Shown in pieces: positions 34,647-56,702 of a DNA stretch of 64,000 nt. The notes beneath the pieces were generated by a model, which worked only from the letters and a program-made list of their open reading frames with translations, searched no databases and was not told where the DNA came from. The stretch is from Tagaea sp. GTDB taxonomy: Bacteria; Pseudomonadota; Alphaproteobacteria; CACIAM-22H2. A program made the position numbers and the translations under genes. The number at the start of each line of letters is the position of its first letter. Position 1 is the first letter of the stretch. The stretch covers positions 704,001 through 768,000 of the forward strand of contig CBDIIB010000005.1 of assembly GCA_965279525.1 (NCBI GenBank). The letters are read 5' to 3'.

Positions 34647-34971
34647 GGGTGACCCTCCCTGATCCGACGCCGACAACGCCGGACATTGAATACGAAACGC
34701 CGCTTCTCTGACGCCTTCGAAGACGCCGAGGATGTTGTTGATTTGAAGCTACCGACCGTCACGTGTGCTTGCAACGCGCAACTGCAATATGTGTGTAGTT
34801 AATATATATGTATTTTGAGTCGACTGTATTGACTCACGGTATCGAGTTTCAATTTATACCGAATGAGAGATCGTTTACCCGCAATGACCGGCTCCAGAAG
34901 CTGCGGCCTGAGCCCAATTAGACCAACCACCATCCATTCTGACCGGCATCCTCGACCTGACTGAGTAACTT

Positions 34972-36357: not shown

Positions 36358-36364
36358 ATCCTTC

Positions 36365-39300: not shown

Positions 39301-42205
39301 CAGATTCTGGAACATATGTCGTAGAAAGCTTCTTCTCGGTATCTTTATAGACTTCCAACGCCCTGAGAGCGCGGCCTGCGGCTTCTGCTTTTGCCGTCAA
39401 ATTTGGAGCGAATGCAAAGCGGAGATCCAGACCATGCGAACCGACAATGGAATCAACGAGTGCAAGCGCTTGTTTGGTTTGCAGGAGTGTCGAAAACTGA
39501 AAATTAATTCCGGTCGCCGCTACTATTTCCGCACAAGCTTCATTGAAATGGCGCTCCTCTGATAGGAACCCCTGTGCCGCAGCGGCAACCTGTTCCTGCC
39601 AGGCGTTCGACCACTCAATATGGGTTAAGTGGGAGAGACGGTCCATCAGACCGGAGACCGGCTGGGAATTCATCTGCAGGCGTCGGACTGCATCACGCAT
39701 CCTGGCCATGTCCTGAGCATCATGCTCGACTGAATCAGGCCAAGTGAGCTTAGGCAGTACGTCTGAGCCATCGCGAACTACAAGGCCGATTGCCTCGTGT
39801 AGCGTCAGCCCATTTGGGGCACGCTTATGCAGGGAGCGGACAAGCGAATTGAGGCCGTCGCGTAAACGAGCAAGCTCGCTTGCTTCTCGAGTCCATTCGT
39901 CATGGGAGAGCGATTCGGCGACATTCCATGCTGCATCAAGCTGTTCGAGAACGGCCGTTTTCGTTGCCTTATTTGAGTGAAGCTCGAGACAGAAATTCGA
40001 AAGTTTCTTGTCTGCGAGGCGCCTATGCACGACCTCAAGCGCTGCCATTTTCTCAGCGACGAACAAGATTCGCCGACCCAATGCCAGATTATGCGCGATG
40101 ATATTTGCAATTGTCTGTGACTTACCGGTACCTGGCGGTCCGTCCAGCACAAAATCCATTCCATCAGCAGATGCTACAGCCGCAGCTATCTGGGAGGAAT
40201 CAGCCGGCAACGGCAAAAACAGCTTGCTCGGGTCAACCTTGTCATCGAGCGCTTCGGGTGGAATGTGCTGTCGTGCGTTCGAATAGGTTTCTGACTTTCG
40301 GTCCAGCAAGTGCCGCACGATCGGGCTATCGCGAAGACTTGCCGAACGATCAACCAAATCCTTCCACATCAGGTATTTGGAAAATGAAAATGTGCCGAGC
40401 ACGATGTCCGTCGAAACTTCGAAGCCTTTCGAATCTCTGACGGCAGAACGAACCATGTTCCACACGCGTAAAATATCAATCCCGTCATTGTCTGTCGGAA
40501 GAGGCCCCGCGAGCGCGTCAACATTCAATTCGAAATCCTGACGAAGCAGCTCGACCAATGTGAGATTGAATCGCGCCTCATCTTCATGCGCTTTTAGTGT
40601 AAAGCCTGAACGCGCGCTTCGCCGTTCAAGACGAACCGGCAATAGTATCAATGGGGCACGATTTACTCTTTGATCTGAATCGGTTTTCTTCCACCTCAGA
40701 AATCCAAGAGCAAGAAATAGGGTGTTTGCGCCACCTTCGTTTATGTCCGAACGCGACTTACGATAAAGCTCTACAAGTGCTGATTCATGGTTCTTTGGAT
40801 CTACGTCGCTGATGATCTCATCTTTACCCAGTGCCTCGCGCGCGACGTCTTCACGAAGATTTGTCCTTCGCTGTTGATCGTAGATCTCACTATCTCGGCC
40901 GCCGGATGCCAAATCCGGCATCGGAACGATTCGTATCGAGTGACCTGCGGCCAATCGATCCTCGAGCTTTGCTGGGTCATGACAAAGGATCGGAACGCAA
41001 CTACTTCCAGCCGGCAAATTCAAAAGCCTATTGCGGGCGGTGAGATCGAGAAGCTTTCTCTGCCATAGAGTAATTCGATCGAGAACCGCATCGGGTTTTG
41101 CGGCAATGGCATCACCAGATTCATCTGGCAGCGGCGGCGGCTCTTCGAGGCCTGGCGGCACATCCTCTTGCTGCGTAGCTTCTGATACTTCTTGAGGGCC
41201 GCGCAAATTGTCTAAAGGCTTGATTTGGCGCATTCGGCCGCGGCGAATGTCGATAACGGCGTAGAAGCCTTCATCATTTTCCGGCACCAGCAGGCGTCGC
41301 GCCTCTTGAACCGCTTGCGAGAATGACGGCGTGGGCACTTGAGTCGCGAACGTCGTCTCAAACACAACGATTTCTTCAAGGTCAAGTCGCTTACGGAGTG
41401 CCGCTGCCTCATCAGTTGCTATATCGGCGAACTCCCGAGACTGAAGCCAGGCGCCGGCGAATGCGTGCCCCTTGATCATAACAATCAAAGGATTTAGCCC
41501 CATCTGCTCCATTGCGGCGGCAAACAGTGTCGCCGTGTCGAGGCAGGTCGCGACGCGGCCCTCCAGGATCGCCCCTGGAGATCTTATTTTCTGACCTGAT
41601 TGCTCAAAGCTTGCAGGCGGAAGTGCATAACTGAGCCGCAATCCTGCTACAGCCGACCAAAGGGCCGATATCAATGTCCACGATCGTTGCCGCGACTTGG
41701 CTTCGTAACCATCCAAACCAGACGGCTTACCTGCGCGCCGTAAAGTCTCCGAGGCAGCTTTTAGTACTTTGTCGACGGCCGGATCGTTCGGCATTACGAA
41801 TGCGGGCAAAAGCTCGGCCATGGATGCCGTGCCGCCCCATTCTGACCGCGCGAGCACTTCAACTGGAGCATGGCTGGTAGCGATATCTGCCCCGTCCTTG
41901 ACCAAGCGAAGCGTGACGGTTCCGCGCACGGATTCAGTCAAGGCGCCGAGATAGGTCGCGTTAAGCTGGACGTTGCGGTCCGGAATTCGCAATGTCGTGT
42001 CTGGATCAATACGATCCAATCGCCATATCTTGTTAGTCAGGAATGGTGGATCTGCGACCAACTCCAGAACTAAGTCCGAGATCGGAATTGAGCTTTGGTT
42101 GACTATCGAGAGTTCGCGCAAAAGAGGTGCCGCATTCTGATGCGATGCGAACCCGATTTTCCCGGAGACGATGGACTGAATCTCGATATCCATGTAGATT
42201 TTCAC
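36365..42205 (-). CDS. DUF4011-SF1 helicase-Vsr-like nuclease-DUF3320 protein (Hhe-type anti-phage protein)
   Basis: WQRKLLDLTARNRLLN, GPPGTGKS, DEASQ, HYRS, QGDE, RRLNVAITRAK and ESPFE...IDL...ECDG..YH motifs; 1946 aa. Confidence 0.85.
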   Translation of the reverse strand: MKIYMDIEIQSIVSGKIGFASHQNAAPLLRELSIVNQSSIPISDLVLELVADPPFLTNKIWRLDRIDPDTTLRIPDRNVQLNATYLGALTESVRGTVTLRLVKDGADIATSHAPVEVLARSEWGGTASMAELLPAFVMPNDPAVDKVLKAASETLRRAGKPSGLDGYEAKSRQRSWTLISALWSAVAGLRLSYALPPASFEQSGQKIRSPGAILEGRVATCLDTATLFAAAMEQMGLNPLIVMIKGHAFAGAWLQSREFADIATDEAAALRKRLDLEEIVVFETTFATQVPTPSFSQAVQEARRLLVPENDEGFYAVIDIRRGRMRQIKPLDNLRGPQEVSEATQQEDVPPGLEEPPPLPDESGDAIAAKPDAVLDRITLWQRKLLDLTARNRLLNLPAGSSCVPILCHDPAKLEDRLAAGHSIRIVPMPDLASGGRDSEIYDQQRRTNLREDVAREALGKDEIISDVDPKNHESALVELYRKSRSDINEGGANTLFLALGFLRWKKTDSDQRVNRAPLILLPVRLERRSARSGFTLKAHEDEARFNLTLVELLRQDFELNVDALAGPLPTDNDGIDILRVWNMVRSAVRDSKGFEVSTDIVLGTFSFSKYLMWKDLVDRSASLRDSPIVRHLLDRKSETYSNARQHIPPEALDDKVDPSKLFLPLPADSSQIAAAVASADGMDFVLDGPPGTGKSQTIANIIAHNLALGRRILFVAEKMAALEVVHRRLADKKLSNFCLELHSNKATKTAVLEQLDAAWNVAESLSHDEWTREASELARLRDGLNSLVRSLHKRAPNGLTLHEAIGLVVRDGSDVLPKLTWPDSVEHDAQDMARMRDAVRRLQMNSQPVSGLMDRLSHLTHIEWSNAWQEQVAAAAQGFLSEERHFNEACAEIVAATGINFQFSTLLQTKQALALVDSIVGSHGLDLRFAFAPNLTAKAEAAGRALRALEVYKDTEKKLSTTYVPESARRIEWRSLIGLWHEAKAKIWPLSHFSKKKIAATLQAHGGTTTPPDPERDLPIIEVLAGSLSELDAVSADLSGMPGWAQLNSDSNQLRKAVELGLKLRQTISEFAGNPDELADIRQKVSRLVIDANDVLGEGGKIQRSLTTLKLSLSRLSAAASSLMTLSSGSPLDQIRSISTLASSIVESRAQLNAWCSWMRASNEAMSFGLSPIVDLAKAGLSAGSDLSQLFEIVYARWFAARTIDADPIIRNFVAAEHLAKIEDFRKLDDKLSDLSVRYIKTVLTKGIPRKDDALQDGGYAVLRHQLQLQRRHKPIRQLITDMGPAFTHLAPCMLMSPLSVAQYLPPDKTLFDLIIFDEASQIAPWDAIGVIARGKQLIVAGDHRQMPPTNFFSRGASSVDDDIDEDMESILDECKAAGLPQIGLTWHYRSQHESLIAFSNDRYYEGSLVTFPAPITKKSAVTWRKIDGVYSKGKSQTNSVEAQAMVDEVVRRLRDGAKSGAADSIAVVTLNSQQQALVEDLLDKARRGYPEIEPFFDEDITEPVVVKNLETVQGDERDVVLLGIGFGPTTQGSDTMSMHFGPLNREGGWRRLNVAITRAKKEMVVFTSFSPGMIDLHRTSARAVADLKHFIEFAERGPRALATSTRGSVGGYESPFEAAVAAELGTLGWRVIPQIGVSRFRIDLGVVHPDRLGDYLVGVECDGAMYHSGATARDRDKIRAAILEKLGWKLVRIWSTDWWIDKKGALARTHEAINQILSESREREASVANVVAAADAATAVYANIEVLPDNRVPEAPAVQVTEAEPVRELFARGASASATKGVVGTFRPANAQDSQLILDRNKFEDPDYVPTLVKLIAFVLECEAPMRDDVLVERVARAHGFQRSGDRIRDRVIKIARRSHFICKDPVGGRFAWLNEPQWAAWSIARKPFDDSSVRLIEDIASEEIRMAQQLCAGGDAPIEIARYFGIRRLSAAARDRIENALKA

Positions 42206-42303
42206 TCTACTTTGGGTCGACTTGGCGGCTTTAAGATGACATCATAAATGATCTTCGTCGAGATATCGTCTGACTCGAGAAGAATAATTGGCCGAGGCAC
42301 CGA

Positions 42304-43131
42304 ATGCACATCAGCATTGGCGGAACATTGGTCGCTTCTGCCACCTGGAATCCGATCTATTTAAAGAATTGTATCGGATCATATGAACTGTATTTTCCGT
42401 TTTCACTGATCGCGAGCGGCGCAGATCATTCCCTCAGCGCCCAGCTCCATGGTGCTCAGGTCGAGTTAAAGGGAATTTCGGACCGACGGATTGAGCTTGG
42501 CTACGCACGTCCGGAGCATCCAATATCGATCGATGGAGTTAAGCGCGAATGGATGTCGGCCTTCATCCTCCCGCTGTCGCCTCTCCATATCGAAGAGATA
42601 GAAGTGATACGGCGCGATACCGATCTGGATTTCGCACTCGATATTCGAGCCACTGCCCAGAAGGGCGATGAACGGCGACAGATTGATCAGAATGTCTGGC
42701 ACCAGCCGATGCCCCGCTCCAAATGGATCGACATCCTGGCGGCTGCCGGTGCCCACAGCTCCATACTGATAAATGTCGAATGTCCCGTCGCCGCCCGTGA
42801 TCCCGGCCGACAGGCAATTTTCACGCTATTCAAATCAGCTCAAGCCTCATTCATGCGAGGCGCTTATATGGAATGCATATCGACCTGCCGGACTGCTTTG
42901 GAAGCGGTTCAAAAATCGACTGCCAGGAACTTTCAAAATTCGTTTGATCTGTTGAATGGCGATCGCCGCTCGATTGGTAGAACTGAGCGCGAAAACCTTA
43001 TCGGCGCCGCGGTCCTCCTCTACACCCATAAAGCACATCACCTTGATGGCGGGCAGGCGCCTGAATTTGGCCCGAGCGATGCGAAATTCGTTCTCTCCAC
43101 GACGGCGGCAGTGATTCAAAAGCTTAGCTAA
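42304..43131 (+). CDS. Hypothetical protein with possible C-terminal HEPN/Abi-like helical domain
   Basis: 275 aa, SD GAGG; C-terminal CRTALE...THKAHH...DAKFVL pattern. Confidence 0.6.
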   Translation: MHISIGGTLVASATWNPIYLKNCIGSYELYFPFSLIASGADHSLSAQLHGAQVELKGISDRRIELGYARPEHPISIDGVKREWMSAFILPLSPLHIEEIEVIRRDTDLDFALDIRATAQKGDERRQIDQNVWHQPMPRSKWIDILAAAGAHSSILINVECPVAARDPGRQAIFTLFKSAQASFMRGAYMECISTCRTALEAVQKSTARNFQNSFDLLNGDRRSIGRTERENLIGAAVLLYTHKAHHLDGGQAPEFGPSDAKFVLSTTAAVIQKLS

Positions 43132-43262
43132 TATCCGCCAATAGCCCCAAGGCGGCTCGTTCGTTCGCTTAGAATTTCTGTCATTCACGTAAACTGTATT
43201 ATTGACACTAAAGCACGCAAAATCTGGCACCGGTTTATAGCTCTCAGGGGCCGGGCTTGGGC

Positions 43263-45581
43263 CTATAAGGCCGTCGGTCTACAAATGCTCTCGATAGCGT
43301 TGTAATGAACCGCATCACTGGCCTTCATTAATTCAACCAAGGAATTAGCTGCGCGGTCTGCCTCTTCTACAGTCATCGAAGATTGAGTGATCAGATCGTC
43401 GAGGCTATCACCATGCGACTCAACCTGGCTGAGGCGCTCGAGCGCAGCAAACTTTGTCCTGTCAATTTCCGGAGGCAATCCCGACAGGAGCTTCCGGATC
43501 TTCTCGTCCAAGCCGAAGGAACCGGGGACTTTGAATGACAAAAATACATCAAGAACTTTTCGTAGCGCGTTTGGCACAACGAAGAAGTAAGTAGCGGGGT
43601 CGTCAATCTTGCGAATGAAGCGAAGGATAAGGTGAAACAGATAGTGGTACTCAGATTCGTATTCGCGAATGTACTTAGGCATATTCTGGAATCTTGTCCG
43701 GCGATCGGTTTCTCCCGCCTTCTGAAACGAATTTAGAAACACGAGCGCGGCAGCTGGCTCTCTTCCGGTCTCTTCCTTGCTTCTCGCTCTATTCTTGAGC
43801 CACTTCTTAACTTCATTCATGAAGTTAAGGTTATGGGTCAAAATAAAAAGCTGTGAAATCGAATCATCTAATCGCGCCTTAAGCATGCAGAACGCATAGT
43901 TGAGCGCGCCGCTGTCCAAGCTCGAAATCGGATCGTCGAGGACAATGATCAAGTCTTTCAGGCGCCGGCCATCTGCTTCGAGCATTGTCAGGAAGTAGCA
44001 AAGGGCTATGGCGGTCCTTTCTCCTTCGCTGAGCCAGCCGGTCATCGGCGCTCCGCTTCTGAAAATTTCATATCCTTCATCACGAGGCCTGAACTCAATT
44101 TCGGTACGTCCGAGATAGTTCGCAATAAGCTTATTTAAGGTCTCGGCAGCCCCTTGATGCTCTCGCATACGACGCTTGAGGGCATCGATTTCTTCCCTTA
44201 CGGCATCACGCGCGATCTTCTTTTCTTTTGCAGTATCGACGGCGATTTTTTCGCTACTCTCCAGTGAAGCGTACTCTTCATAGTTTTCCCTAAGATAGTG
44301 GCGCCTCAAGGAGTTCTTGGCATGGTCCTGCTCCGTCGCAAAGTCGTCGTGCGCCTTATTATGGGCCCAGATCACATCCACTAAAGTTGCCATGCCGGTA
44401 GAGAGTAGGCGATCAACCTCAATTGAAGTCTCGGCACTGATCACCTTATCGAGATCTATCGCGACGTTCGGGCGACTTAACTTGGCCCTCAAAGCCGAGA
44501 CGAGAGATTCGAGAATCTCAATGCCTTTTCCCCGCGCCGTAGCAACAATCTCTGACGCGGACTTGAAGTCTTCTTGCCTGACTGAAATGTCATTCGAGGA
44601 GTACATCATCAGCGATCGAAATTTCTCCACGGAACGCGTCGTGGCATCGTGAAGGGTCTGAATTCCGGCAATTAGTGCGTCGTACTTGTCGTCAATCGCA
44701 GTCGCAAGGCTCTCCAAGCGGCCATGTGGGATATCACTTGAGCAAAACAAGCATTTCGATAGTTCCTTTGATTGGTGATACGAGATGCCCGTCTTGATCC
44801 ACGGCAGCATCGACTCGTTATCCTTTAGCTCTTTAAGCGAAATCGATCCGAGCGTAACGGCGAGACGATCACGGCACTCACTGACGAGCTCGGAGATAAA
44901 TAGATCTTCGAATGTTGGAACAACCAGCTTTGGCAGTGGCGCTGCTCGATCGGCAAGCGCTACGTAGCCCTTGATCTGGGCTTCGGTCACCTGAAGTGAA
45001 GTGCCAACGTCCGGATCTTCGCTGTAGGCCTTTGCAAGTTGAGTTGCATTAAATTTTCGCGCGCCTTGACGAGCATTCGCCTCGATGCTTCGAGCCATTG
45101 CCGTTTTTCTTGTCTCAAACGCCTTACTGGCTTCGCGCTGAGCTTTGTCTGCTCTCTCGTATTCTTCTTCGAGATCCGGGAGTTTTTTTTCCAAAGTTTC
45201 GCGCTGTTTTGCGAGATCAGCTTGCGCCTTTCCAATAAAGTAAATCGGACTTGCGCTTCCTGAAGTCCACTGGAGATTCTCGTCCACGAAATCACCATTG
45301 AACACAAGAATGCGGTCTTTCAAGCGATCAAGATTGCGGTCGCTTTGAATCTCAGATGCATCGTCAAGTGAGAATTTGAAGCCAGATTCGGGAGGCAGCT
45401 TGTCGGCTATTGCACCTTTCTGAATTGATGCAAAAACCCGTGATAGCGACGTCTTTCCAGAACCATTGAATCCATAAATGAGATTGTAGCGTTTGAACTC
45501 AGGCAGATCAGACACGACCGCAGGATCCCGAAATACATGAATGCCTGTAATCGATGAAATCTTGGAAATGATCGGCGGCAT
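43263..45581 (-). CDS. RloC-like AAA_13 ABC-ATPase with zinc hook and C-terminal HEPN nuclease
   Basis: GFNGSGKT, CLFC hook within coiled coil, LSEGE, LDDPISSLD, LTHN and R-x6-H (RLSQVESH); SD GGAGGG before ATG 45581. Confidence 0.82.
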   Translation of the reverse strand: MPPIISKISSITGIHVFRDPAVVSDLPEFKRYNLIYGFNGSGKTSLSRVFASIQKGAIADKLPPESGFKFSLDDASEIQSDRNLDRLKDRILVFNGDFVDENLQWTSGSASPIYFIGKAQADLAKQRETLEKKLPDLEEEYERADKAQREASKAFETRKTAMARSIEANARQGARKFNATQLAKAYSEDPDVGTSLQVTEAQIKGYVALADRAAPLPKLVVPTFEDLFISELVSECRDRLAVTLGSISLKELKDNESMLPWIKTGISYHQSKELSKCLFCSSDIPHGRLESLATAIDDKYDALIAGIQTLHDATTRSVEKFRSLMMYSSNDISVRQEDFKSASEIVATARGKGIEILESLVSALRAKLSRPNVAIDLDKVISAETSIEVDRLLSTGMATLVDVIWAHNKAHDDFATEQDHAKNSLRRHYLRENYEEYASLESSEKIAVDTAKEKKIARDAVREEIDALKRRMREHQGAAETLNKLIANYLGRTEIEFRPRDEGYEIFRSGAPMTGWLSEGERTAIALCYFLTMLEADGRRLKDLIIVLDDPISSLDSGALNYAFCMLKARLDDSISQLFILTHNLNFMNEVKKWLKNRARSKEETGREPAAALVFLNSFQKAGETDRRTRFQNMPKYIREYESEYHYLFHLILRFIRKIDDPATYFFVVPNALRKVLDVFLSFKVPGSFGLDEKIRKLLSGLPPEIDRTKFAALERLSQVESHGDSLDDLITQSSMTVEEADRAANSLVELMKASDAVHYNAIESICRPTAL

Positions 45582-45714
45582 AGATTTCGTCCCTCCGGAG
45601 AAGGGTACGCTCCAAGATTGCGCAATTTGTGTCAACATACATCTGTAATGTGGGAACCTGGTTGCGTGCTCTGGGCATCGAAGCGAGGAATCTGCCTCCG
45701 TAATTCTTATCGTT

Positions 45715-45811
45715 CGGTAGGGGGCCAGGGATTCGAACCCTGCCGTTCCAGGCTATCTGCCCAGTCTCGCGCGAGTATAAGCCGCGCCCGCACTTACCAG
45801 TGCTGCCCCCC
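45715..45811 (-). tRNA. Irregular tRNA/tRNA-like RNA, anticodon UAU, long variable arm
   Basis: Manual cloverleaf: acceptor GGGGGGC/GCCCCCT; D arm GCAC-TGGTAA-GTGC; anticodon arm GCGCGG-CTTATAC-TCGCGC; variable arm CTGGGC-AGATA-GCCTGG; T arm CAGGG-TTCGAAT-CCCTG; ends A-CCG. Confidence 0.8.
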
Positions 45812-45836
45812 AAAGGAACACGATGTTGCTGCAGGC

Positions 45837-47879
45837 TTAGGGCCTCGGACGACGATCCGGATCGTTCTTCCCGATCGTGAAATTGTTCCGCAGCGCCCCT
45901 TTGTCGTGGAGTTCCTTGCGATCCATGACCCGGAATTCCTTTGGAATGTCCTTCCGCGGATAGAAGCGCGTCGGCATCCCCCGCAGCGAGAGCGGCTTAA
46001 TACGGAAGAACGTGCAACTTCCGACGATAAGGTCGGGATGGATTTTTCGACCGGGCTGCTTATCCTCATAGGTCCGCCGCAGCTTGTTCTGCGAGATGTA
46101 CTGCCGGTCGAACGCGTCGAGATCCCCCGTGAGGACACGCGCTGCAGGCCCGCCATGCAGGTCGCGGTATTCCTGCAAATACCCATCGCGAATTAGTGCT
46201 GAGACTGCTGTCTTATCGACCATCAGCCGCTTGGCAACCTGTTCCAGAGAGTGGGTCGGATTTTTGATCCCCATCTCCGCGTAGGCCCATTTGTGGGCAC
46301 TATCCCGATCGAAGATCATGCGCTCAAGGAGGTTGTGCTCCTCGGGATCGAACTTGATCGGGATCAGCTTCCCGCTCAGCACCGCGCTCACGACGGTCGA
46401 CCACGGATAGTCGACATTCTTCTTCAGCATTTCGACGACGACCTTCGTCGTGACCTGGGTGCCCGAGATGAGCATGGGGCGGACACTCGCCTCGAGTGCC
46501 GTAGCGATGGCGTCAATCTCCGCGCGCCGGTATAGCGCCTTAGCCATGCCGACCAGACGCAGGTACTCCGGCTCCACCTGCTTGAGCAGGCCGCTGTCGC
46601 ATAGATCGGCCACGACATCGTGCCTCAGGCGCCATTCTCCCCGGAGGGTTCGCGCGGAGATCATGCTCTGTAGGGCCGACATCACCTCATCGACCTTCTT
46701 CCGGCTGATCCGGAGAGGCGTACCGCTTCCCTGCCCCTCGGACAGCAGAACACCGGGGAATTTCAGGAGCTCGGTGATCCGTCGGTGGCTCCAGCCGTAC
46801 TTGGCCTTCACGTCCCGGAGCATGATGCCGTCGGAAACGTCCCCGACGGCTTCGGCCAGCGGGGTACCGGCTTTCAGGGAGATTTCGGGATGTGCCTCGA
46901 GAAAGGACCGGACGGCCGGAACGACCACGGCCCAGATCTCAGCTTCTGCACTCCATTCCCGCAGCAGGATCTGGAAGTAGCCGAATGCCTTCTTGGTCCC
47001 GTAGGCGCCAGCCCGCTCCTCCGAGATCATCTTCTCCTCCTCCAGATAGCCAAGGAGGGCATCCGGCCAGCCCGTGGCGATCTGGTAGGCGTGCAGCACG
47101 GCCTGGGACCAGTCGAGATGCGTGGTCCGGTGTCCCGGCTTCCTGGGCTCGATCAAGCGATCGACCGCGTTCTTTGGCCTCCGAGCGGCCTTCTCCTCGT
47201 CCATGCCAGCGGCCAGCGAGAACACGAACTTGAAGAGCCTACCGGTACCAAGATCCCGGATCTCGGGTGCCAGAGCCTCGCTGGCAGCCTTGGCCCGCTC
47301 GGGATCGAGGGATACGAGGTCGGCAAGCCCGGCAATCGCCACCCGGGTATCTTCGTCGACCTGATCGGGGGCCCCCGCCGCGATCGGCTCCCCACAGGCG
47401 TGGCAGGTCAGGAAGTCCGACTTGCCCCAGGAGAACTCAGTATCGCAGTGCGGGCAGGCCCCGATCAGACGCTCACCGTTCGCCGGATCGGCGATGACGA
47501 AGGTCAGGTCCCAGGACATCCGATGAATGCCCGTCGCTCTGAAGTCATGGGGTGCGATCCGGGGTGAGCCCCCGGAGAACACCGCCCGCTCGATCCAGTT
47601 CCCAGCGAAGCAGACCAGACTGACGAACTCCGGGACCGCCTCATAGCGACGCCGATCCAGCTCGGCTTTGGACACACCCAACCGCGCTGCGACTGCCTCC
47701 AGGCCGGCCCCCGTCCGGTGGAACTCAGACAGGCTGCGGGCTTCCGCCTCCGTCGCCGGGAGGATCGAAGACGGCCCCGGCAGTACGAGATCCTTAGCGA
47801 CGCGAAGGAAGTAGCCGTTGAGGCTCTCGTCCGGCTGCAGAGAGAGCGTGATGGAGAAGGCGGTCGTGATCTTATCCAT
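45837..47879 (-). CDS. tniQ: TniQ/TnsD target selector
   Basis: PDESLNGYFLRVA N-terminus, CPHC/CHAC zinc ligands and a long HTH-rich C-terminus; fourth gene of the tns operon. Confidence 0.85.
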   Translation of the reverse strand: MDKITTAFSITLSLQPDESLNGYFLRVAKDLVLPGPSSILPATEAEARSLSEFHRTGAGLEAVAARLGVSKAELDRRRYEAVPEFVSLVCFAGNWIERAVFSGGSPRIAPHDFRATGIHRMSWDLTFVIADPANGERLIGACPHCDTEFSWGKSDFLTCHACGEPIAAGAPDQVDEDTRVAIAGLADLVSLDPERAKAASEALAPEIRDLGTGRLFKFVFSLAAGMDEEKAARRPKNAVDRLIEPRKPGHRTTHLDWSQAVLHAYQIATGWPDALLGYLEEEKMISEERAGAYGTKKAFGYFQILLREWSAEAEIWAVVVPAVRSFLEAHPEISLKAGTPLAEAVGDVSDGIMLRDVKAKYGWSHRRITELLKFPGVLLSEGQGSGTPLRISRKKVDEVMSALQSMISARTLRGEWRLRHDVVADLCDSGLLKQVEPEYLRLVGMAKALYRRAEIDAIATALEASVRPMLISGTQVTTKVVVEMLKKNVDYPWSTVVSAVLSGKLIPIKFDPEEHNLLERMIFDRDSAHKWAYAEMGIKNPTHSLEQVAKRLMVDKTAVSALIRDGYLQEYRDLHGGPAARVLTGDLDAFDRQYISQNKLRRTYEDKQPGRKIHPDLIVGSCTFFRIKPLSLRGMPTRFYPRKDIPKEFRVMDRKELHDKGALRNNFTIGKNDPDRRPRP

Positions 47880-47881
47880 CG

Positions 47882-48925
47882 TTACGTCTCCTCATCGACG
47901 GTATCGTCATTCGTCGATCCGTCCCGAGCACCGCTACCCCGATTCCGGGTCGTGAGTTCGCCAGCCGCCGAGCGGAGCGCCTTCTCCGATTTTGTCATCT
48001 TGCGAGTAGGCTTCTTCTTTCTCGACGTCGCATCGTCAACCTCGTAGCCCTCCTCCTGATCAGGTAGGAGAGCGCACACGGCTGTTTGGATTGCGTCCTC
48101 GTCGACCCCGGCGCGCTTCCTACTGCGCGCCTCACGGGAAGCTTCTTCGACGAGGTTGAAGATCCATCCGAAAAGCCCATTTGTGTAGGCGAGCATACGG
48201 CTCGCGACTTCCTCACTGCAGAGGTAGTCGGTGTCCGGGCATCCGAAGGCCTTCGAGTACTCGTTGAGAACACTCCGGAACTCGATGAATTCCGAAGCCT
48301 TCAGTTCCTCCCCGCCACTACGTCGGAAGTCCGGGTTCTGCGTGTCGCAGAACCCACGCAACCGAATGTTACGAATACGGCGGCGACGAACCTGCTCGTC
48401 CATCTGGATGACCATCTCGGATTCTTCGACACCGGCCATGACGATCCCGATCCTGGCATCATTCATCAGGCCTTTGATCGCATCACATACACCGGCCCGA
48501 TCTGTTCCGACCTTTCTGGTCAGATGCTGGAATTCATCCAGAACCAGCACGCGCACACCATGGTGCTTGAGGAAATGGACAAGCCGATTCCGGCGACTTC
48601 CGTTCGTCTCTCTGTTCAAGGTAGGTGCACCCAGCACAGTCAGAATTTCATCGTAGAATCCTTGCAGCGACGGATTGCTCGGCACCTTCACATAGGAAAC
48701 CGGCCGGATCGGTCGACCATTCTCTGTGCAGGGTGGGTGAAGCTCTACGAAGCTTTCGAGAATCGTCGATTTTCCACTACCTGCAGGTCCAATGACGGAA
48801 GCACATCGACCCTCGCGCCCATCGACTGCGACTTCGTAGAACCGCTCGAGATCCGACATCGCCCGCGTGAACTGACGCGTGTCGAGAACCATCGCATGAA
48901 CCTGTTTCCGAAGTGCTTCATCCAT
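47882..48925 (-). CDS. tnsC: TnsC/TniB AAA+ ATPase
   Basis: GPAGSGKS, LVLDEFQH and EQVRRR motifs. Confidence 0.9.
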   Translation of the reverse strand: MDEALRKQVHAMVLDTRQFTRAMSDLERFYEVAVDGREGRCASVIGPAGSGKSTILESFVELHPPCTENGRPIRPVSYVKVPSNPSLQGFYDEILTVLGAPTLNRETNGSRRNRLVHFLKHHGVRVLVLDEFQHLTRKVGTDRAGVCDAIKGLMNDARIGIVMAGVEESEMVIQMDEQVRRRRIRNIRLRGFCDTQNPDFRRSGGEELKASEFIEFRSVLNEYSKAFGCPDTDYLCSEEVASRMLAYTNGLFGWIFNLVEEASREARSRKRAGVDEDAIQTAVCALLPDQEEGYEVDDATSRKKKPTRKMTKSEKALRSAAGELTTRNRGSGARDGSTNDDTVDEET

Positions 48926-48942
48926 AGCTGGTCTCCTCGTGG

Positions 48943-51000
48943 TTACTTGGGTTGAAGGGACGTCTTCTTGAAGGTGTAGAGCGGAGCCTGAGCCGAGCTG
49001 GCCGAAGTGCCTGACGCCTTACGAACTTTGCCGGCGTGCCGCTTCACCGAGGGGATCGGCGTCGAAGCACCCGCGGTAGGCTTTGCTACTCGATGCCTTC
49101 CCGGCTCGTTCGACGGAGCTTCAGGGTTGAGCTTCCTCGGCCTACGTCGATTGATCTTGCCGATGTCTCTCATGATCTCCGCGCGAGCACGGCGATACTC
49201 CTGGTCCGTTCCGGGGGCTTTCTTGGACTTGAGACGTGCCTCGATCAGCCGGTGCATCCGCAGGGAAACACCTTCTCGCTTGCTCGGATCGACGGCGGGA
49301 ATCTCGACAAGTTGTCCAGATGCCGAATCCAGAACGAAGATCTTTCCGACGTCGTTCGGATCAAGGAGCGCTTCGACTACAGGATTCCGACGATGGTAGG
49401 CATGTGCATGGATGCGGATGCGCTCAACGGCGACACCGCCATATAGGATGCCCTCGACCCGGATTCCTGACCGGGTCGCCACGCTCTTTTGGCTCAGCAT
49501 GGTTGCTTCGCGGATTTCTCGTGCCGACAGTTTCACAGGCGGCGGAAACTTGACGCTCAAGTCATTCCAAGCTTGAAGGGGCGAACACCGAAGCGTGGAG
49601 TGGGGCTTCTTGTGATACAAGTCGCAGATGGTTCGTGCGATTAAGCTGTCAAGCTCTGCGAACGTCATACGGGCGTTTTCTTCCGGCTTACGATCAGCTT
49701 TCGCCGCGACATTGCTTTTCGTCGTACCGGCAATTCGATGAAGCAGGAAAGAGCAGAAAGACCCGAAGATTCTCTCGACCCTGGACTTCATATTGGGCGC
49801 ACGGGGCGGCAAGATGACAAAGTCGATATCGAGATTCCGCAGCGCTTCCTGAACTGCATGGCTCAGGAAGTCCTTTCCCCGATCGGTCACCAGCTCGATA
49901 GGAACGCCGAAGATAGGCCAGTCCGACTTAACGCCGAGTGAGTTCAGGAAAGCTCGCGTTTTCGGGAGCATCGCGAAGCGGAGTGTGGCCAGAACAGCAG
50001 AGGCATCCGGCGCTGCGACGTCGAGCAAATATCCGGGGATCATTCTGGTTTTATGGTCAATGATGGCCGTAAGCCAGACACGCCCGACAGTGACGCAGCC
50101 CTCGTCATCGAGGATATCCAGATCGATTTTTGTATGGTCGATCTCCCAGCGTGCCATTGGACCAAGAGAGTCGGGCCCGGCCATCGACTGCTTGTAGTTG
50201 AAGCGGGCGATCCGCTTTCCTTCTTCATGTTCCAGGCGCCGCAACCCACCCATCGCCTCGAGGCGACGCTTGATCGTCGAAATCGAGGGCCGCGGCCCTG
50301 TTGAAAGACGAGCATCTCGAGAGATCTTCTCGTGGAGATCTGTTTCGATTAGAGCGATTGCTCCTGCATAGTTTGCCTCATCTGCGTCGAAGTAGTGTTC
50401 GGCGCATAGTTCGGCCATCCAGATCTCGATCAGCGGATCGCAACGAGGACCACTCGTTCCACGAAGATGGAATTGGGGCACAAGGAGACTTTTGTTGGCA
50501 CTTTTCCACGCCTGTTTGATCCATCTGTAGATGGTTGCACGCGATGGAGCGTTCCGACCTTGCAGCCATTTCGGGTAGCCAGTTTTTTCGAAGTGCGTCT
50601 GGTGAATTTCGAGGGCTTTTTCCTTGGTGAATGCTGAGATTGTCCCGTTGGGTTCGATCGAACCGAACGCTTTGACGAAAGCCGCACGATAATTGGCGTG
50701 CTCTGCGTATGTCACACCACTGACGGTTCTTCGAAGAAGCGCCGTCATGAACGTGTCTTTGCGTACTCCGACTTTAGTCGGCGCCACATTGACGACGATC
50801 TTCTCGTCCATGAATTTCGTCATGAACTCGTCACGCGTTAGCTGGAAGTGGCGTCCGGTTCTGAGTGAGACGAACGTGACACTTCCGCCCGGGTTCTCCC
50901 CGCTGATGCGACATTGTTCCCCGTCGATCTCGAACGAGCTTCCGAGGCGAAAGCCGAACGCGACAGTGGGAACCGGAGGGAACGAATTTCGGGTAGACAT
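48943..51000 (-). CDS. tnsB: TnsB DDE transposase
   Basis: PSRATIYRW HTH, WEIDHT, TDRGKDF, VERIF and YHKKPHSTL motifs. Confidence 0.92.
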   Translation of the reverse strand: MSTRNSFPPVPTVAFGFRLGSSFEIDGEQCRISGENPGGSVTFVSLRTGRHFQLTRDEFMTKFMDEKIVVNVAPTKVGVRKDTFMTALLRRTVSGVTYAEHANYRAAFVKAFGSIEPNGTISAFTKEKALEIHQTHFEKTGYPKWLQGRNAPSRATIYRWIKQAWKSANKSLLVPQFHLRGTSGPRCDPLIEIWMAELCAEHYFDADEANYAGAIALIETDLHEKISRDARLSTGPRPSISTIKRRLEAMGGLRRLEHEEGKRIARFNYKQSMAGPDSLGPMARWEIDHTKIDLDILDDEGCVTVGRVWLTAIIDHKTRMIPGYLLDVAAPDASAVLATLRFAMLPKTRAFLNSLGVKSDWPIFGVPIELVTDRGKDFLSHAVQEALRNLDIDFVILPPRAPNMKSRVERIFGSFCSFLLHRIAGTTKSNVAAKADRKPEENARMTFAELDSLIARTICDLYHKKPHSTLRCSPLQAWNDLSVKFPPPVKLSAREIREATMLSQKSVATRSGIRVEGILYGGVAVERIRIHAHAYHRRNPVVEALLDPNDVGKIFVLDSASGQLVEIPAVDPSKREGVSLRMHRLIEARLKSKKAPGTDQEYRRARAEIMRDIGKINRRRPRKLNPEAPSNEPGRHRVAKPTAGASTPIPSVKRHAGKVRKASGTSASSAQAPLYTFKKTSLQPK

Positions 51001-51069
51001 CGGTTACTCCAGGCAAAGCTCGGGTGTGGCTCAGGTTGAGCTTTCATTTCGGGTGCAGGACTTGGCTTG

Positions 51070-51834
51070 TTAGGCGGAAACTATCAGGCGGCTTTCGAGA
51101 CCGAGTTTGGCCTCCATGTCCGTATCGAGGACTTGCCTGGCGACAAGGGCGTAGATGTCAACCTCATGCACGGCGTCGGCGCGGAATACTTCGACGATCT
51201 TGCGTACAGTCACGTTCGGGTACCGCTTGATCGTTGCCCTGATACTGGCGACCATCGGCGCTTCTACACGTCGGTTCCGATAGTGCCAGAGCAGTTTCCG
51301 GTTGGAGTACTGGGGCTCGATCCGGATTTCTCGCTCTGTCAGAACACGATATGACCAGCCGAGTTGCTCGAAAACCTCGCGCTCTCCTCGGAAGCGCGGG
51401 TTCTCGCGTAGATGTTTCTCGAACGTGGAAAAGGTCTTGATCTGAACGATTTCGAACCGTCCACCGATCAGCCTCAGTTCGACGTCCGGATATGTCGAGA
51501 CAACCTTCTCTCCGACCTCGTAGACCACCGTGAAGGGCTGCGTAGTGTAGGAAACGACGCCCCTGTCGAAGTGGAACATCTTGAAGGCATCGGCCTCCAG
51601 GCCCGATTCGGCTTCTCCGATACCGATCGATTTTGGACTTGCGATCCTCTGCGTTGGTCGAATTCCATAGCCTGGCCTGACCTCCCGGGATGGTTTTCCG
51701 TCAGCCGCTTGCACGATGCTGCCGCAGACACCTTCCGAGGTTCGGAATCGCAGGATGTATTTGCCTTCGACTGGGCCCTTCGCAAAGCGAAACGGCCCCT
51801 CTGAAGGTTTGCTTTTGTGACGTGACTTTGACAT
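51070..51834 (-). CDS. tnsA: TnsA endonuclease
   Basis: ESGLE, QP, YPD, QIK and VLTEREIR motifs plus C-terminal wHTH; SD AGGAGAGG. Confidence 0.87.
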   Translation of the reverse strand: MSKSRHKSKPSEGPFRFAKGPVEGKYILRFRTSEGVCGSIVQAADGKPSREVRPGYGIRPTQRIASPKSIGIGEAESGLEADAFKMFHFDRGVVSYTTQPFTVVYEVGEKVVSTYPDVELRLIGGRFEIVQIKTFSTFEKHLRENPRFRGEREVFEQLGWSYRVLTEREIRIEPQYSNRKLLWHYRNRRVEAPMVASIRATIKRYPNVTVRKIVEVFRADAVHEVDIYALVARQVLDTDMEAKLGLESRLIVSA

Positions 51835-51974
51835 CAGAACCTCTCCTGCTCGATATCGCCAGGACCAGTACCGGACATGCGCAGACGGTCTTCGGCGTCG
51901 CCGGAAGTTCGATCTGTCAGGTCTGGAAGGTCGCCAGTCGGCCCAGGGGCCGACGCCTCACGCGTCGCCGCTGG

Positions 51975-52079
51975 TTAGCGGGATATCGAGATCAGGTGAG
52001 GAAGGGCGCGGTTCATGATGGAAACGTTGTACCTGAAATTTTCGGAAGTTTCAACAATCCGATTCAACGTGGCAGACAT
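51975..52079 (-). CDS. 34-aa upstream ORF ahead of tnsA
   Basis: SD AAGGAGAG 5 nt before ATG 52079; MSATLNRIVETSENFRYNVSIMNRALPHLISISR. Confidence 0.45.
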   Translation of the reverse strand: MSATLNRIVETSENFRYNVSIMNRALPHLISISR

Positions 52080-52475
52080 CGTCGCTCTCCTTTGCAACCG
52101 AACGCGGCGCGAGCTGGCGTTCGGCAACACAGCGCCGAGTTGTTTTCGGCGCACACACGCCAAGGCTGATTGCCAAGCGCAGGGGAATAGAACATCAGTG
52201 CCGCATTGGTTTTGCACAGAAAAATTGTGTAACTGTCAAGTATATCTATTGAACAAACTCAAGTAATTTAGTAAATATATCAATTATGGTGCTTATTTGT
52301 TCGTCTTTCATATAATAAATGAACTTGAATACTTAGACACTGACAAACGTGTCGATCTTTCCCAACCGGTTCCAGTGGGTCGTTCAATTTGCCGCGCCCG
52401 GTCTTCTGCGGACATCATTAGGGCATTTGCCAGCACGCAGATCGGTTGCCTACCTGTTACCTGTGATCACTGGGC

Positions 52476-52860
52476 CTACTTTGAAACCATGCGCCCTTGA
52501 AGCCAGAAGACGCCTGCAACGTCCGAGCCTTCGACAGGCTGCTCATCGGATTTCCACACGTGATCGCCGATATAGAGCGCAAGTTTGAAGTCGCCGTAGC
52601 TGTCGGGCAGGCGAAGTGGCGTGATCACAAGGGAAGTAAGCTTTCGGCCAAATACTTCGATCTTCTCGATCCACCGGACGGGTCCTTGATACTGGTACTC
52701 GTCAGGCGCGTACGTGTCCTGGGGAATAAGGGCGGCTACACCCTTCATGCTGATCGTGATCGGCTTGAGTTGGTCGCCCGGGGTGCCTGGCTCGTTCTTC
52801 GTCCGGAGGCGGGCGGGATCGTCGATGACGATCGGCTCTGTCCTGTCGATCTTCGTTCAC
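52476..52860 (-). pseudogene. Frameshifted C-terminal gene fragment
   Basis: Protein-like 90-aa frame ending GVFWLQG; upstream protein-like text (KIDRTEPIVIDDP) lies in another frame. Confidence 0.45.
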
Positions 52861-52994
52861 TGCGTCTGGCGGGCCGTCTTTGAGGCGTCAAATCAGCCCA
52901 AAGGACGCCTTTGGGCAGGGGGTCGAGTCAGAGAAAGTGAGATTCCGGAAATCAATACTTCCGGATTATTTGTTATCTGTCAGATAGATATGCG

Positions 52995-53066
52995 GATAAC
53001 TCGTCGCAATAAGAGTCTCACCATTTGAAAAGTCGTCTCAGTATCTCTGAGTCACGACAATAGACA
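52995..53066 (-). repeat. Transposon end with candidate TnsB-binding repeats
   Basis: Minus strand begins TGTCTATTGTCGTGACT; TGAGACGACTTTTC (53040-53027) and TGCGACGAGTTATC (53008-52995) match 11/14; an alternative TGT start lies at 53059. Confidence 0.65.
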
Positions 53067-53074
53067 AACCCCAC

Positions 53075-56702
<3,628 letters not shown>

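What the first reader, a model, noticed from the sequence alone, without database searches (positions are those of the whole stretch)
45715..45811. Hidden irregular tRNA with UAU anticodon inside the transposon
Seen: a full cloverleaf starting 25 bp after the tniQ stop, with canonical TTCGAAT T-loop and CT-TAT-AC anticodon loop. Irregular features are a G1-U72 wobble, a one-nucleotide acceptor/D linker without U8, a 6-bp anticodon stem, a long variable arm with unpaired flanks, and no encoded CCA. Known: most bacteria read AUA with lysidine-modified CAU tRNA, UAU anticodons are rare, and long variable arms mark Ser/Leu/Tyr/Sec tRNAs; irregular allo-tRNA-type genes have been reported in mobile DNA. 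Inference: it may mis-decode AUA, aid translation of AT-rich cargo, or act as a processing signal on the tns transcript.
Basis: partly seen in the sequence, partly recalled or inferred. Interest (0 to 1): 0.82.

Follow-up and report, generated by a model that had tools for sequence, protein, structure and literature searches.

The report
Phage-type extra-arm AUA tRNA on transposon
The flagged sequence is a real, well-formed tRNA gene with anticodon UAU belonging to a family otherwise seen mostly in phage tRNA clusters, marked by an extra arm with an invariant A-G-A-U loop, and here it rides as cargo of a Tn7-like transposon.

Summary
A 96-nt cloverleaf with anticodon UAU lies on the minus strand at 45811..45716, 25 nt after the tniQ-like stop.

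A structure model built only from 27 unique phage sequences of a "compact" subtype scores the element 54.0 bits. That is the top hit in its own 4.35-Mb genome, 20 bits above any host tRNA.

The family hallmark is a variable-arm hairpin with a 7-nt loop carrying A-G-A-U. In the 80 viral loci it occurs in 59 of 60 long phage tRNA(UAU) genes and 0 of 117 other long tRNAs, and the window element has it. All helices covary.

The tRNA is not part of the transposition core. Related Tn7-like elements in two other Tagaea genomes lack it.

Most likely it decodes AUA, a codon about 4-fold enriched in the cargo. Expression and amino-acid identity are untested.

It fails the defining 8/4 or 9/3 test for allo-tRNA. 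Earlier notes of this scan describe the same family on other DNA. Five literature searches found no paper describing it.

The parts
45716..45811 (-). tRNA gene, anticodon UAU, 96 nt (G1 at 45811; A73 at 45718; C74 C75 at 45717-45716; next base G at 45715)
   Evidence: ARAGORN; MFE cloverleaf; CM R2 54.0 bits, with 26 of 27 model pairs standard
45777..45779 (-). anticodon UAU, within the 7-nt loop CUUAUAC (45775-45781)
45748..45764 (-). variable-arm hairpin: 5-bp stem and 7-nt loop CAGAUAG. The family-invariant A-G-A-U lies at 45758..45755
   Evidence: script test; aligned to the model's AGAU
45790..45804 (-). single-nucleotide linker (A, 45804) plus compact D arm (stem GCAC/GUGC, small loop containing GG)
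   Evidence: The nearest phage relative L305 has the same linker and the same D stem
45726..45742 (-). T arm: 5-bp stem and loop UUCGAAU
45837..47879 (-). tniQ/tnsD-like gene (680 aa), last gene of the transposition module
   Evidence: Position after the TniB gene; weak PADLOC TniQ match at E 4.6e-5; one homologue cluster carries PF06527
47882..51834 (-). tnsA-like (51834..51070), rve-type transposase tnsB-like (51000..48943), TniB/TnsC-like ATPase (48925..47882)
   Evidence: Pfam and NCBIfam
43263..45638 (-). first protein-coding cargo gene: AAA_13 ATPase, PADLOC candidate defence family PDC-S06. It starts 77 nt downstream of the tRNA
   Evidence: PF13166 E 9.2e-133; PDC-S06 E 7.7e-159; weak PrrC match E 3.4e-13
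34972..43131 (.). further cargo: ORF with no family (42304..43131, +), anti-phage ProA (42205..36365, -), DUF4236 protein (36357..34972, -)
34790..53066 (.). approximate extent of the Tn7-like element (GC 0.49-0.59 for most of the block, against 0.60-0.70 in the flanks). The right end abuts the gyrB stop at 53075
   Evidence: composition; homology to seven relatives' gyrB stops at 53073-53079. The left end was not verified against an empty site

Best explanation
This is a genuine tRNA gene of a phage-type family: class-II-shaped tRNAs with anticodon UAU whose variable arm ends in a 7-nt loop carrying an invariant A-G-A-U. The window copy belongs to a 'compact' subtype of that family, defined by a 1-nt acceptor/D linker, a 4-bp D stem with a small loop, a 6-7 bp anticodon stem and a 7/5 acceptor branch.

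It is the first cargo gene of a Tn7-like transposon that sits next to the 3' end of gyrB in a Tagaea (Alphaproteobacteria) genome.

The most likely mechanism, all inferred: it is co-transcribed with the tns and cargo genes, which lie on the same strand. It is then cut out by RNase P and 3' processing, and its CCA end is completed. It reads AUA codons, most probably as isoleucine. This would supplement the host's lysidine-dependent tRNA-Ile2 for AUA-rich, lower-GC acquired genes.

Shown here: the structure, family membership, covariation in the family, genomic position and codon counts. Inferred: expression, maturation, amino-acid identity and benefit.
For: Structure:
- ARAGORN call and a full cloverleaf.

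Membership:
- CM R2 was built from 27 unique viral sequences without the window. It scores the element 54.0 bits, E about 1e-10, rank 1 in its genome. The next hits are host tRNA-Leu and tRNA-Tyr at 34 bits.
- 26 of 27 model pairs are standard in the window.
- The AGAU 7-nt variable-arm loop occurs in 59 of 60 long tRNA(UAU) genes and 0 of 117 other long tRNAs among 749 ARAGORN tRNAs in 80 viral loci. The window has it.
- AGAT was invariant in 51 of 51 unique sequences although the search pattern did not include it.

The family is a real structured RNA:
- 22 of 24 pairs show compensatory changes.
- In the compact subtype 99.5% of cells are paired, 19 of 27 pairs show double changes, and 0 of 500 shuffles reach this.

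The family behaves as tRNA:
- 56 of 65 compact-subtype loci have another tRNA within 1 kb, and 53 of 65 have three or more others, often including tRNA-Ile(GAU).
- Cultured-phage members are annotated tRNA-Ile: Levilactobacillus phage ENFP1 and Vibrio phage 12VC501.

The window copy is not decayed:
- Against its nearest relative L305, about 8 pairs differ on both sides yet stay paired (my reading of the sequences).
- Its ACCG end is shared by 3 ordinary host tRNA genes.

Demand for AUA decoding:
- Cargo ATA is 9.8 per 1000 against 2.35 per 1000 genome-wide.
Against: - No expression data: no RNA run holds this DNA.
- No sigma-70-like promoter in 45400-46200.
- The host already has a TilS-type gene and three tRNA(CAU) genes, so the element is not needed for AUA decoding.
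- The element is unique to this genome among 50 genomes of the order. Related Tn7-like elements lack it. This could mean a recent, possibly neutral pickup.
- The higher ATA content of the cargo follows trivially from its lower GC.
- Of the bacterial Ile determinants tabulated in PMC9976931, the window has A73, C29-G41, A35, U36 and A37. It lacks C4-G69, U12-A23, A38 and G/C34.
- E. coli IleRS charges a UAU tRNA poorly (PMC3575796, abstract).
- Against the broader model R1 the element scores 43.6 bits, no better than ordinary host tRNAs at 33-51 bits.
- Mukai et al. found six allo-tRNA(UAU) variants inactive in E. coli translation (PMC5389517, section 16).
Confidence: 0.55

Rival explanations
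1. A non-translational tRNA-like RNA. It would serve as a processing, stability or regulatory element on the tns-cargo transcript, in the sense proposed for allo-tRNA(UAU) species linked with transposons and toxin-antitoxin loci.
For: - It lies in a 198-nt gap between two same-strand genes, with no promoter or terminator of its own detected.
[quoted passage not shown] It was inactive in E. coli translation and associated with transposable elements (PMC5389517, section 16).
- The element lacks U8 and has a reduced D arm.
Against: - In phages the same subtype sits in tRNA arrays among ordinary tRNAs with encoded CCA ends, which points to translation.
- The transposition modules of related elements work without it.
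- The invariant anticodon loop and A73 are what a decoder needs, not what a processing signal needs.
Confidence: 0.17
2. A functionless hitchhiker: a phage-derived tRNA gene captured with cargo DNA and on its way to decay.
For: - Present in 1 of 50 genomes of the order and in 2 of 401 sampled genomes of the phylum, one being this genome itself.
- Deviations from the subtype consensus: a 2-nt larger D loop, loss of the outermost anticodon-stem pair, and ACCG instead of ACCA.
- No promoter.
Against: - All five helices are intact, with 26 of 27 model pairs standard.
- About 8 pairs are changed on both sides relative to the nearest relative yet remain paired.
- GC is 0.67, matched to the 0.664 genome, against 0.44-0.59 in the phage relatives scored. 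This implies long residence under structural constraint.
- The invariant loops are intact.
Confidence: 0.13
3. A mis-decoding tRNA: it is charged with leucine (or another class-II amino acid) because of A73 plus the long variable arm, so AUA would be read partly as Leu.
For: - The bacterial Leu identity set in PMC9976931 Table 1 is A73, tertiary interactions and a large variable region, and the window has A73 and the long arm.
- Nematode V-arm tRNA(UAU) is charged with leucine in vitro (PMC3333845 and PMC4300185; abstracts in search listings only).
- The window lacks several Ile determinants.
Against: - The common subtype keeps the Ile-type pairs: C4-G69 in 38 of 51 and U12-A23 in 42 of 51.
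- It co-occurs with tRNA-Ile(GAU) in near-complete phage tRNA sets.
- The arm is short (4-5 bp) and its conserved loop is unlike Leu, Ser or Tyr arms: 0 of 117 share it.
- Proteome-wide Ile-to-Leu ambiguity in so many phages is unlikely.
Confidence: 0.07
4. It is functionally tied to the neighbouring AAA_13 / PDC-S06 defence gene, which is distantly PrrC-like. It would act as a spare, decoy or antidote tRNA for a tRNA-targeting system.
For: - Immediate adjacency: 77 nt upstream, same strand.
- The PADLOC PrrC model matches the neighbour weakly, E 3.4e-13.
Against: - None of 4 loci with AAA_13 homologues in other genomes has this tRNA. One has an ordinary tRNA-Gly nearby.
- In phages the tRNA lies in tRNA arrays or beside replication genes, not beside AAA_13 genes.
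- Nuclease activity of this protein is not shown, and no solved relative exists.
Confidence: 0.04

Closest known systems
allo-tRNA(UAU) group (Mukai et al., Nucleic Acids Res 2017, PMC5389517; abstract and sections 13, 14 and 16 read, supplements not available)
   Same: UAU anticodon, long variable arm, long anticodon stem, D stem with a small loop, and association with transposable elements. tRNA-Sec covariance models pick it up as a sub-threshold look-alike.
   Different: - Allo-tRNAs are defined by a 12-bp acceptor branch in 8/4 or 9/3 form. The window and its relatives have 7/5, supported by covariation.
- Most allo-tRNAs have G73 or U73, whereas this one has A73.
- I could not check whether the published allo-tRNA(UAU) sequences carry the AGAU loop, because the figures and Supplementary Figure S5 were not visible.
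Phage genes annotated simply 'tRNA-Ile' in Levilactobacillus phage ENFP1 (OM293948.2) and Vibrio phage 12VC501 (OP313112.1), and an unannotated one in Lactobacillus phage LpeD
   Same: Same family: UAU anticodon and a variable-arm hairpin with an AGAU loop. R1 scores are 86.0, 59.1 and 94.2 bits.
   Different: They belong to the common subtype with a normal D arm and U8, and they lie in phage tRNA clusters. The window copy is the compact subtype, is GC-rich, and sits on a Tn7-like transposon in a bacterial chromosome.
Class I bacterial tRNA-Ile2(UAU), e.g. Mycoplasma mobile (Taniguchi et al. 2013, PMC3575796; abstract read)
   Same: An unmodified-type UAU anticodon used to read AUA instead of lysidine-CAU. 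It raises the same problems of IleRS recognition of U34 and of AUG misreading.
   Different: That tRNA has an ordinary short variable loop and depends on an adapted IleRS (Arg865) and ribosome. The present family carries an extra arm and spreads on phages and mobile DNA into hosts that keep TilS.
Nematode V-arm tRNAs, nev-tRNA-Ile(UAU) (PMC3333845; abstract in search listing only)
   Same: A class-II shape combined with a UAU anticodon.
   Different: They are eukaryotic, are charged with leucine, and no AGAU loop is reported. The resemblance is by analogy only.
tRNA-Sec (Rfam RF01852)
   Same: Long variable arm, 6-bp anticodon stem, compact D arm. An 8/5 fold is possible if U45812 pairs with A73.
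   Different: It scores 24.2 bits against a cut-off of 47, the anticodon is UAU rather than UCA, and ARAGORN found no tRNA-Sec in this genome.

Membership tests
Phage-type long-variable-arm tRNA(UAU) family with AGAU loop (unnamed; defined here) | Variable-arm hairpin, 3 or more bp, closing a 7-nt loop with A-G-A-U at loop positions 2-5 | tested here: met
   The window has CAGAUAG on a 5-bp stem. The feature occurs in 59 of 60 long tRNA(UAU) genes and 0 of 117 other long tRNAs.
Phage-type long-variable-arm tRNA(UAU) family with AGAU loop | Anticodon loop YUUAUAC and discriminator A73 | tested here: met
   CUUAUAC and A73. A73 is invariant in A3 and A5. The loop was partly forced by my search patterns in the viral sets.
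Compact subtype of that family (27 unique viral sequences) | 1-nt acceptor/D linker, 4-bp D stem with a small loop, 6-7 bp anticodon stem, 7/5 acceptor branch | tested here: met
   Alignment to R2 shows 26 of 27 pairs standard, a D loop 2 nt longer and 6 of 7 anticodon-stem pairs.
Compact subtype of that family | Scores with a model built without it, above all other sequences of its genome | tested here: met
   54.0 bits, rank 1 of 26 hits, with the next at 34 bits. Common-subtype members score 24-36 bits with R2.
allo-tRNA (Mukai et al. 2017) | 12-bp acceptor branch in 8/4 or 9/3 configuration | tested here: not met
   7-bp acceptor plus 5-bp T stem. Both helices covary as 7 and 5 in relatives.
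allo-tRNA (Mukai et al. 2017) | Long variable arm, long anticodon stem, tRNA-Sec-like D stem with tetraloop | tested here: met
allo-tRNA (Mukai et al. 2017) | G73 or U73 discriminator in most members (Ser identity) | tested here: not met
   A73
tRNA-Sec (RF01852) | Rfam gathering score of 47 bits; UCA anticodon | tested here: not met
   24.2 bits; anticodon UAU
tRNA-Sec (RF01852) | Selenocysteine machinery (SelA, SelB) in the genome | not tested
   No search was run.
Canonical tRNA (Rfam RF00005) | Reaches the family's gathering score | tested here: not met
   No match at gathering thresholds in the window. In the permissive search only the clan-best tRNA-Sec hit at 24.2 bits was kept.
Isoleucine-accepting tRNA (bacterial identity set, PMC9976931 Table 1) | A73, C4-G69, U12-A23, C29-G41, G/C34, A35, U36, A37, A38 | tested here: inconclusive
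   Present: A73, C29-G41, A35, U36, A37. Absent: C4-G69 (G-C here), U12-A23 (A-U here), A38 (C here), G/C34 (U here). This is my reading of the sequence. Charging cannot be tested with these tools.
Tn7-like transposon | TnsA-like endonuclease, DDE (rve) transposase, TniB/TnsC ATPase and TniQ/TnsD-like target selector in one operon | tested here: met
   The TnsA, rve and TniQ matches are below the curated cut-offs, and TniB is strong at E 3.4e-36. Terminal repeats were not defined.

The most novel reading that the evidence does not exclude
The invariant A-G-A-U in the 7-nt loop of the extra arm places G-A-U, the anticodon of the major isoleucine tRNA, at the same loop positions (3-5) that an anticodon occupies.

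The boldest reading not excluded is that this arm is a surrogate identity element. It would let ordinary IleRS enzymes, which reject U34, charge a UAU tRNA, or it would recruit a U34-modifying enzyme. That would make the molecule a host-independent, portable AUA decoder.

This would explain why the molecule spreads on phages and, as here, on a Tn7-like transposon into a host that still has TilS.
Probability: 0.1. Interest if true: 0.85.

Novelty: new variant of a known kind. Interest (0 to 1): 0.55.

Why it matters
AUA is the hardest sense codon for bacteria to read. It normally needs lysidine-modified tRNA-Ile2, and a plain UAU tRNA is poorly charged by standard IleRS and can misread AUG (PMC3575796, abstract).

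This family is widespread. A covarying tRNA(UAU) family with an extra arm and an invariant loop suggests a different, transferable solution to that problem.

The window adds two points:
- The tRNA is not confined to phage tRNA arrays. It can travel as transposon cargo in a GC-rich alphaproteobacterium.
- The 'irregular' compact architecture (no U8, reduced D arm, long anticodon stem) is a conserved design, not damage.

If the arm proves to be an identity or modification signal, it would be a new class of tRNA determinant and a possible tool for codon-specific engineering.

For annotation, such genes are currently labelled plain tRNA-Ile or missed altogether: Rfam gathering thresholds miss this one, and Lactobacillus phage LpeD's copy is unannotated.

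Tried and rejected
1. BLAST of the element against 400 sampled genomes of the phylum gave only short chance or T-arm matches. The best, in G020, lies in a coding-looking stretch with no tRNA.

2. Tested whether the tRNA is part of the transposon core.
- TniQ relatives were found as 15 proteins at 49-91% identity.
- DNA context could be fetched only for the 62-63% and 29% relatives: 3 genome loci and 1 metagenome locus.
- None has a tRNA downstream.

3. Tested coupling to the AAA_13 gene.
- Homologues occur in 5 of 401 genomes of the class, including this one.
- None of the 4 other loci has the tRNA.
- The plasmid search gave 123 records, all below 60% identity; contexts were not inspected.

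4. Searches of plasmids and phages with the element itself gave no match or T-arm-only matches.

5. No RNA holder was listed for this DNA. Four runs of one study hold it, and none is on record as RNA.

6. Viral scan with TGGTA...CTTATAC...AGAT was too loose. Of its 80 listed loci I judged two (L186, L220) to be real members, and none of the 80 extracted stretches had a T-loop motif within the sequence I cut out.

7. Viral scan requiring the window's exact loop CAGATAG gave 0 matches.

8. R1, the model of the common subtype, does not separate the element from ordinary tRNAs. I therefore built R2.

9. Checked for an att-site relic. There is no second copy of the tRNA 3' end in the window and no integrase among the cargo genes examined.

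10. Six other long ARAGORN calls in the genome look like false positives: they lack T-loop consensus. They are unrelated to this element.

11. Literature searches for a description of the AGAU-arm family found none.

12. The search of earlier findings by sequence and by place returned nothing.

Full report
**Observation**

ARAGORN finds exactly one tRNA in the window: tRNA-Ile(tat), 96 nt, at 45716..45811 on the minus strand. Read on that strand, it starts 25 nt after the stop of a 680-aa ORF that follows a TniB/TnsC-like gene. The MFE fold is a cloverleaf at -47.8 kcal/mol with z = -2.59, and 5 of 200 shuffles fold at least as well.

- T-loop UUCGAAU and anticodon loop CUUAUAC.
- G1.U72 wobble.
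- One A between the acceptor and D stems.
- A 6-bp anticodon stem.
- A variable-arm hairpin with 4 and 5 unpaired flanking bases.

The 3' end is A73-C-C-G, so only the last A of CCA is missing. Three ordinary tRNA genes of the same genome end in N73-CC-G too.

Rfam at gathering thresholds reports nothing in the window. The best permissive hit is tRNA-Sec at 24.2 bits, against a cut-off of 47. ARAGORN alone is not strong evidence here. It makes six other long, poor-looking calls in this GC-rich genome.

**Surroundings**

On the minus strand the order is:
- tnsA-like (51834..51070)
- rve transposase (51000..48943)
- TniB (48925..47882)
- tniQ-like (47879..45837)
- the tRNA
- an AAA_13 ATPase of PADLOC candidate family PDC-S06 (45638..43263)
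- the anti-phage protein ProA (42205..36365)
- a DUF4236 protein (36357..34972)

An ORF with no family match (42304..43131) lies on the plus strand between the AAA_13 gene and ProA.

GC is lower from about 34.8 to 53.1 kb than in the flanks. Homology with the gyrB gene of seven congeners stops at 53073-53079, the gyrB stop. Titles of related records place the genome in Tagaea, Alphaproteobacteria. The tRNA is therefore inside a Tn7-like element, at the junction between the transposition genes and defence-type cargo. The left boundary is approximate.

**Is it part of the transposon core or of the neighbouring defence gene?**

It is not part of the core. Two other Tagaea genomes and one metagenome contig carry tnsABC-tniQ at 66-70% nucleotide identity and 62-63% TniQ identity. 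Homology ends inside the tniQ 3' end, and no tRNA follows.

It is not tied to the defence gene. AAA_13 homologues were found in 4 other genomes of 400 sampled in the class. None has this tRNA.

The family pattern occurs in 0 of 49 other genomes of the order. In a 400-genome sample of the phylum it occurs in 1 other genome, a truncated copy at a contig end.

**Relatives**

Of the 80 loci held, 62 have an ARAGORN tRNA over the match, and 60 of these are 91-96-nt tRNA(tat) genes. The other 18 have no ARAGORN call. The 60 reduce to 51 unique sequences.

Their alignment shows A-G-A-T invariant in the loop of the variable arm, although the pattern did not ask for it. RNAalifold predicts 24 pairs, 22 with compensatory changes, including the variable-arm stem.

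Among all 749 ARAGORN tRNAs of these loci, a hairpin with a 7-nt loop holding AGAT at positions 2-5 occurs in 59 of 60 long tRNA(tat) genes. It occurs in 0 of 117 other long tRNAs (Leu, Ser, Tyr and others). The window element has it, as CAGAUAG on a 5-bp stem.

Members not found through my pattern exist in cultured phages:
- Lactobacillus phage LpeD, unannotated.
- Levilactobacillus phage ENFP1, annotated tRNA-Ile.
- Vibrio phage 12VC501, annotated tRNA-Ile.

All three have the AGAU loop.

**The compact subtype**

Four of the 51 sequences share the window's oddities. A targeted scan returned 71 stretches, complete this time. Of these, 68 could be extracted with full flanks. Three were the common subtype, leaving 65 compact loci and 27 unique tRNAs. 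They align without gaps.

I wrote the structure as follows:
- 7-bp acceptor stem
- 1-nt linker
- 4-bp D stem with a 4-nt loop
- 7-bp anticodon stem
- 4-bp variable stem with a 7-nt loop
- 5-bp T stem

On this structure 99.5% of cells pair and 19 of 27 pairs change on both sides. No slid or shuffled control comes close, with 0 of 500 shuffles reaching the observed values. These sequences are related and partly selected by my pattern, so the counts describe the family rather than independent events.

Model R2, built from these viral sequences alone, scores the window element 54.0 bits. That is the best hit in its own genome, and the next best are tRNA-Leu and tRNA-Tyr at 34 bits. 26 of 27 model pairs are standard. 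Common-subtype members score only 24-36 bits with R2, so the window copy is specifically a compact-subtype member.

The broader model R1 does not discriminate: the element scores 43.6 bits against 33-51 bits for ordinary host tRNAs.

The nearest relative is L305:3833-3923. It has the same A linker and the same D stem, and it lies in a phage contig beside DNA polymerase, UvsX-like and DnaB-like genes. By my reading, about eight pairs differ on both sides from the window copy while staying paired.

**What it does**

In phages the family behaves as a working tRNA:
- 56 of 65 compact loci have another tRNA within 1 kb.
- 53 of 65 have at least three others, up to 38, often including tRNA-Ile(GAU).
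- Nearly all encode CCA.

The simplest function is decoding AUA. In the window the cargo genes hold 34 ATA in 3477 codons, or 9.8 per 1000. The tns genes hold 1 in 1970, and 1073 long ORFs of the genome hold 2.35 per 1000. This enrichment is expected from the lower GC alone.

The host keeps a TilS-type gene and three tRNA(CAU) genes, so the tRNA would be a supplement and not a necessity. No promoter-like or minus-strand terminator-like site flanks it. If expressed, it would be cut from a polycistronic transcript; this is inference.

Amino-acid identity is open:
- A73, A35, U36, A37 and C29-G41 fit the bacterial Ile set.
- C4-G69, U12-A23 and A38 are absent.
- A73 plus a large variable region also fits the Leu set (PMC9976931 Table 1).

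The common subtype does keep C4-G69 (38 of 51) and U12-A23 (42 of 51).

**Comparison with what is known**

The closest published class is allo-tRNA(UAU) (PMC5389517). It shares the UAU anticodon, the long arm, the long anticodon stem and the links with transposons, and it was inactive in E. coli translation. Allo-tRNAs, however, are defined by an 8/4 or 9/3 acceptor branch and mostly have G73 or U73. This element has 7/5 and A73, so I do not file it there. I could not see the published allo-tRNA(UAU) structures, so identity of the two groups is not excluded.

Class I tRNA-Ile2(UAU) of Mycoplasma mobile shows the functional problem. E. coli IleRS charges UAU tRNA poorly, and AUG can be misread (PMC3575796 abstract). 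Nematode V-arm tRNA(UAU) is an analogue charged with Leu (search listings).

Five literature searches found no description of the AGAU-arm family. Papers in subscription journals are not covered by those searches.

Earlier notes of this scan describe the same family on other DNA: an extra arm tipped with invariant G-A-U, apparently undescribed. I reached the same reading before seeing them, and I treat them as leads, not support.

**Verdict**

The finding is real and is more than chance. It is a new, transposon-borne, GC-adapted member of a widespread phage tRNA(UAU) family, and the family's extra arm is unexplained.

My estimates:
- About 0.9 that it is a family member.
- About 0.55 that it is an active AUA decoder in this host.

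The invariant A-G-A-U puts GAU, the major Ile anticodon, at anticodon-like loop positions. It remains the most intriguing open point.

Noticed in passing
window 34972-45638: The cargo of the Tn7-like element is a small defence island. It holds an AAA_13 ATPase of PADLOC candidate family PDC-S06, a 1946-aa ProA anti-phage protein (NCBIfam NF058533, 2098 bits), a DUF4236 protein, and a 275-aa plus-strand ORF with no family match.
   Followed up: partly
G439:C1 and G445:C1 (L037, L038); window 51835-53075: Related Tn7-like elements in two other Tagaea genomes also lie near the 3' end of gyrB, with the tnsA end about 7 kb from it. This suggests gyrB-proximal targeting, perhaps with tandem insertions. 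The region downstream of gyrB differs in all seven congeners compared.
   Followed up: partly
L040, L046, L054, L080, L089 (viral contigs): A second, different kind of UAU-anticodon tRNA-like sequence with a long insert and T-loop, which ARAGORN does not call. It accounts for part of the 18 of 80 pattern hits without a tRNA call, and it lies in or near phage tRNA clusters. It may correspond to the 'D-armless' phage tRNA noted earlier in this scan (e1-6065231).
   Followed up: no
G000 C2:254249-254323, C3:17978-18051, C4:582486-582561: Three ordinary host tRNA genes (Met/CAU, Thr/UGU, Pro/UGG) encode CCG instead of CCA after the discriminator. Almost all the others encode CCA.
   Followed up: no
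L026 1163-1237: An ordinary tRNA-Gly(GCC) lies about 260 nt upstream of a distant AAA_13 homologue (28% identity) in another alphaproteobacterial genome, possibly an island integrated at a tRNA gene.
   Followed up: no
L168 (Lactobacillus phage LpeD, MF787246.1 138772-138861): A clear family member at 94.2 bits with R1, plus several other tRNAs in the stretch, are not annotated in the deposited record.
   Followed up: partly
window 52220-52340 and 34780-34860: Very AT-rich stretches sit near both presumed ends of the element. The terminal TnsB-binding repeats were not defined.
   Followed up: no
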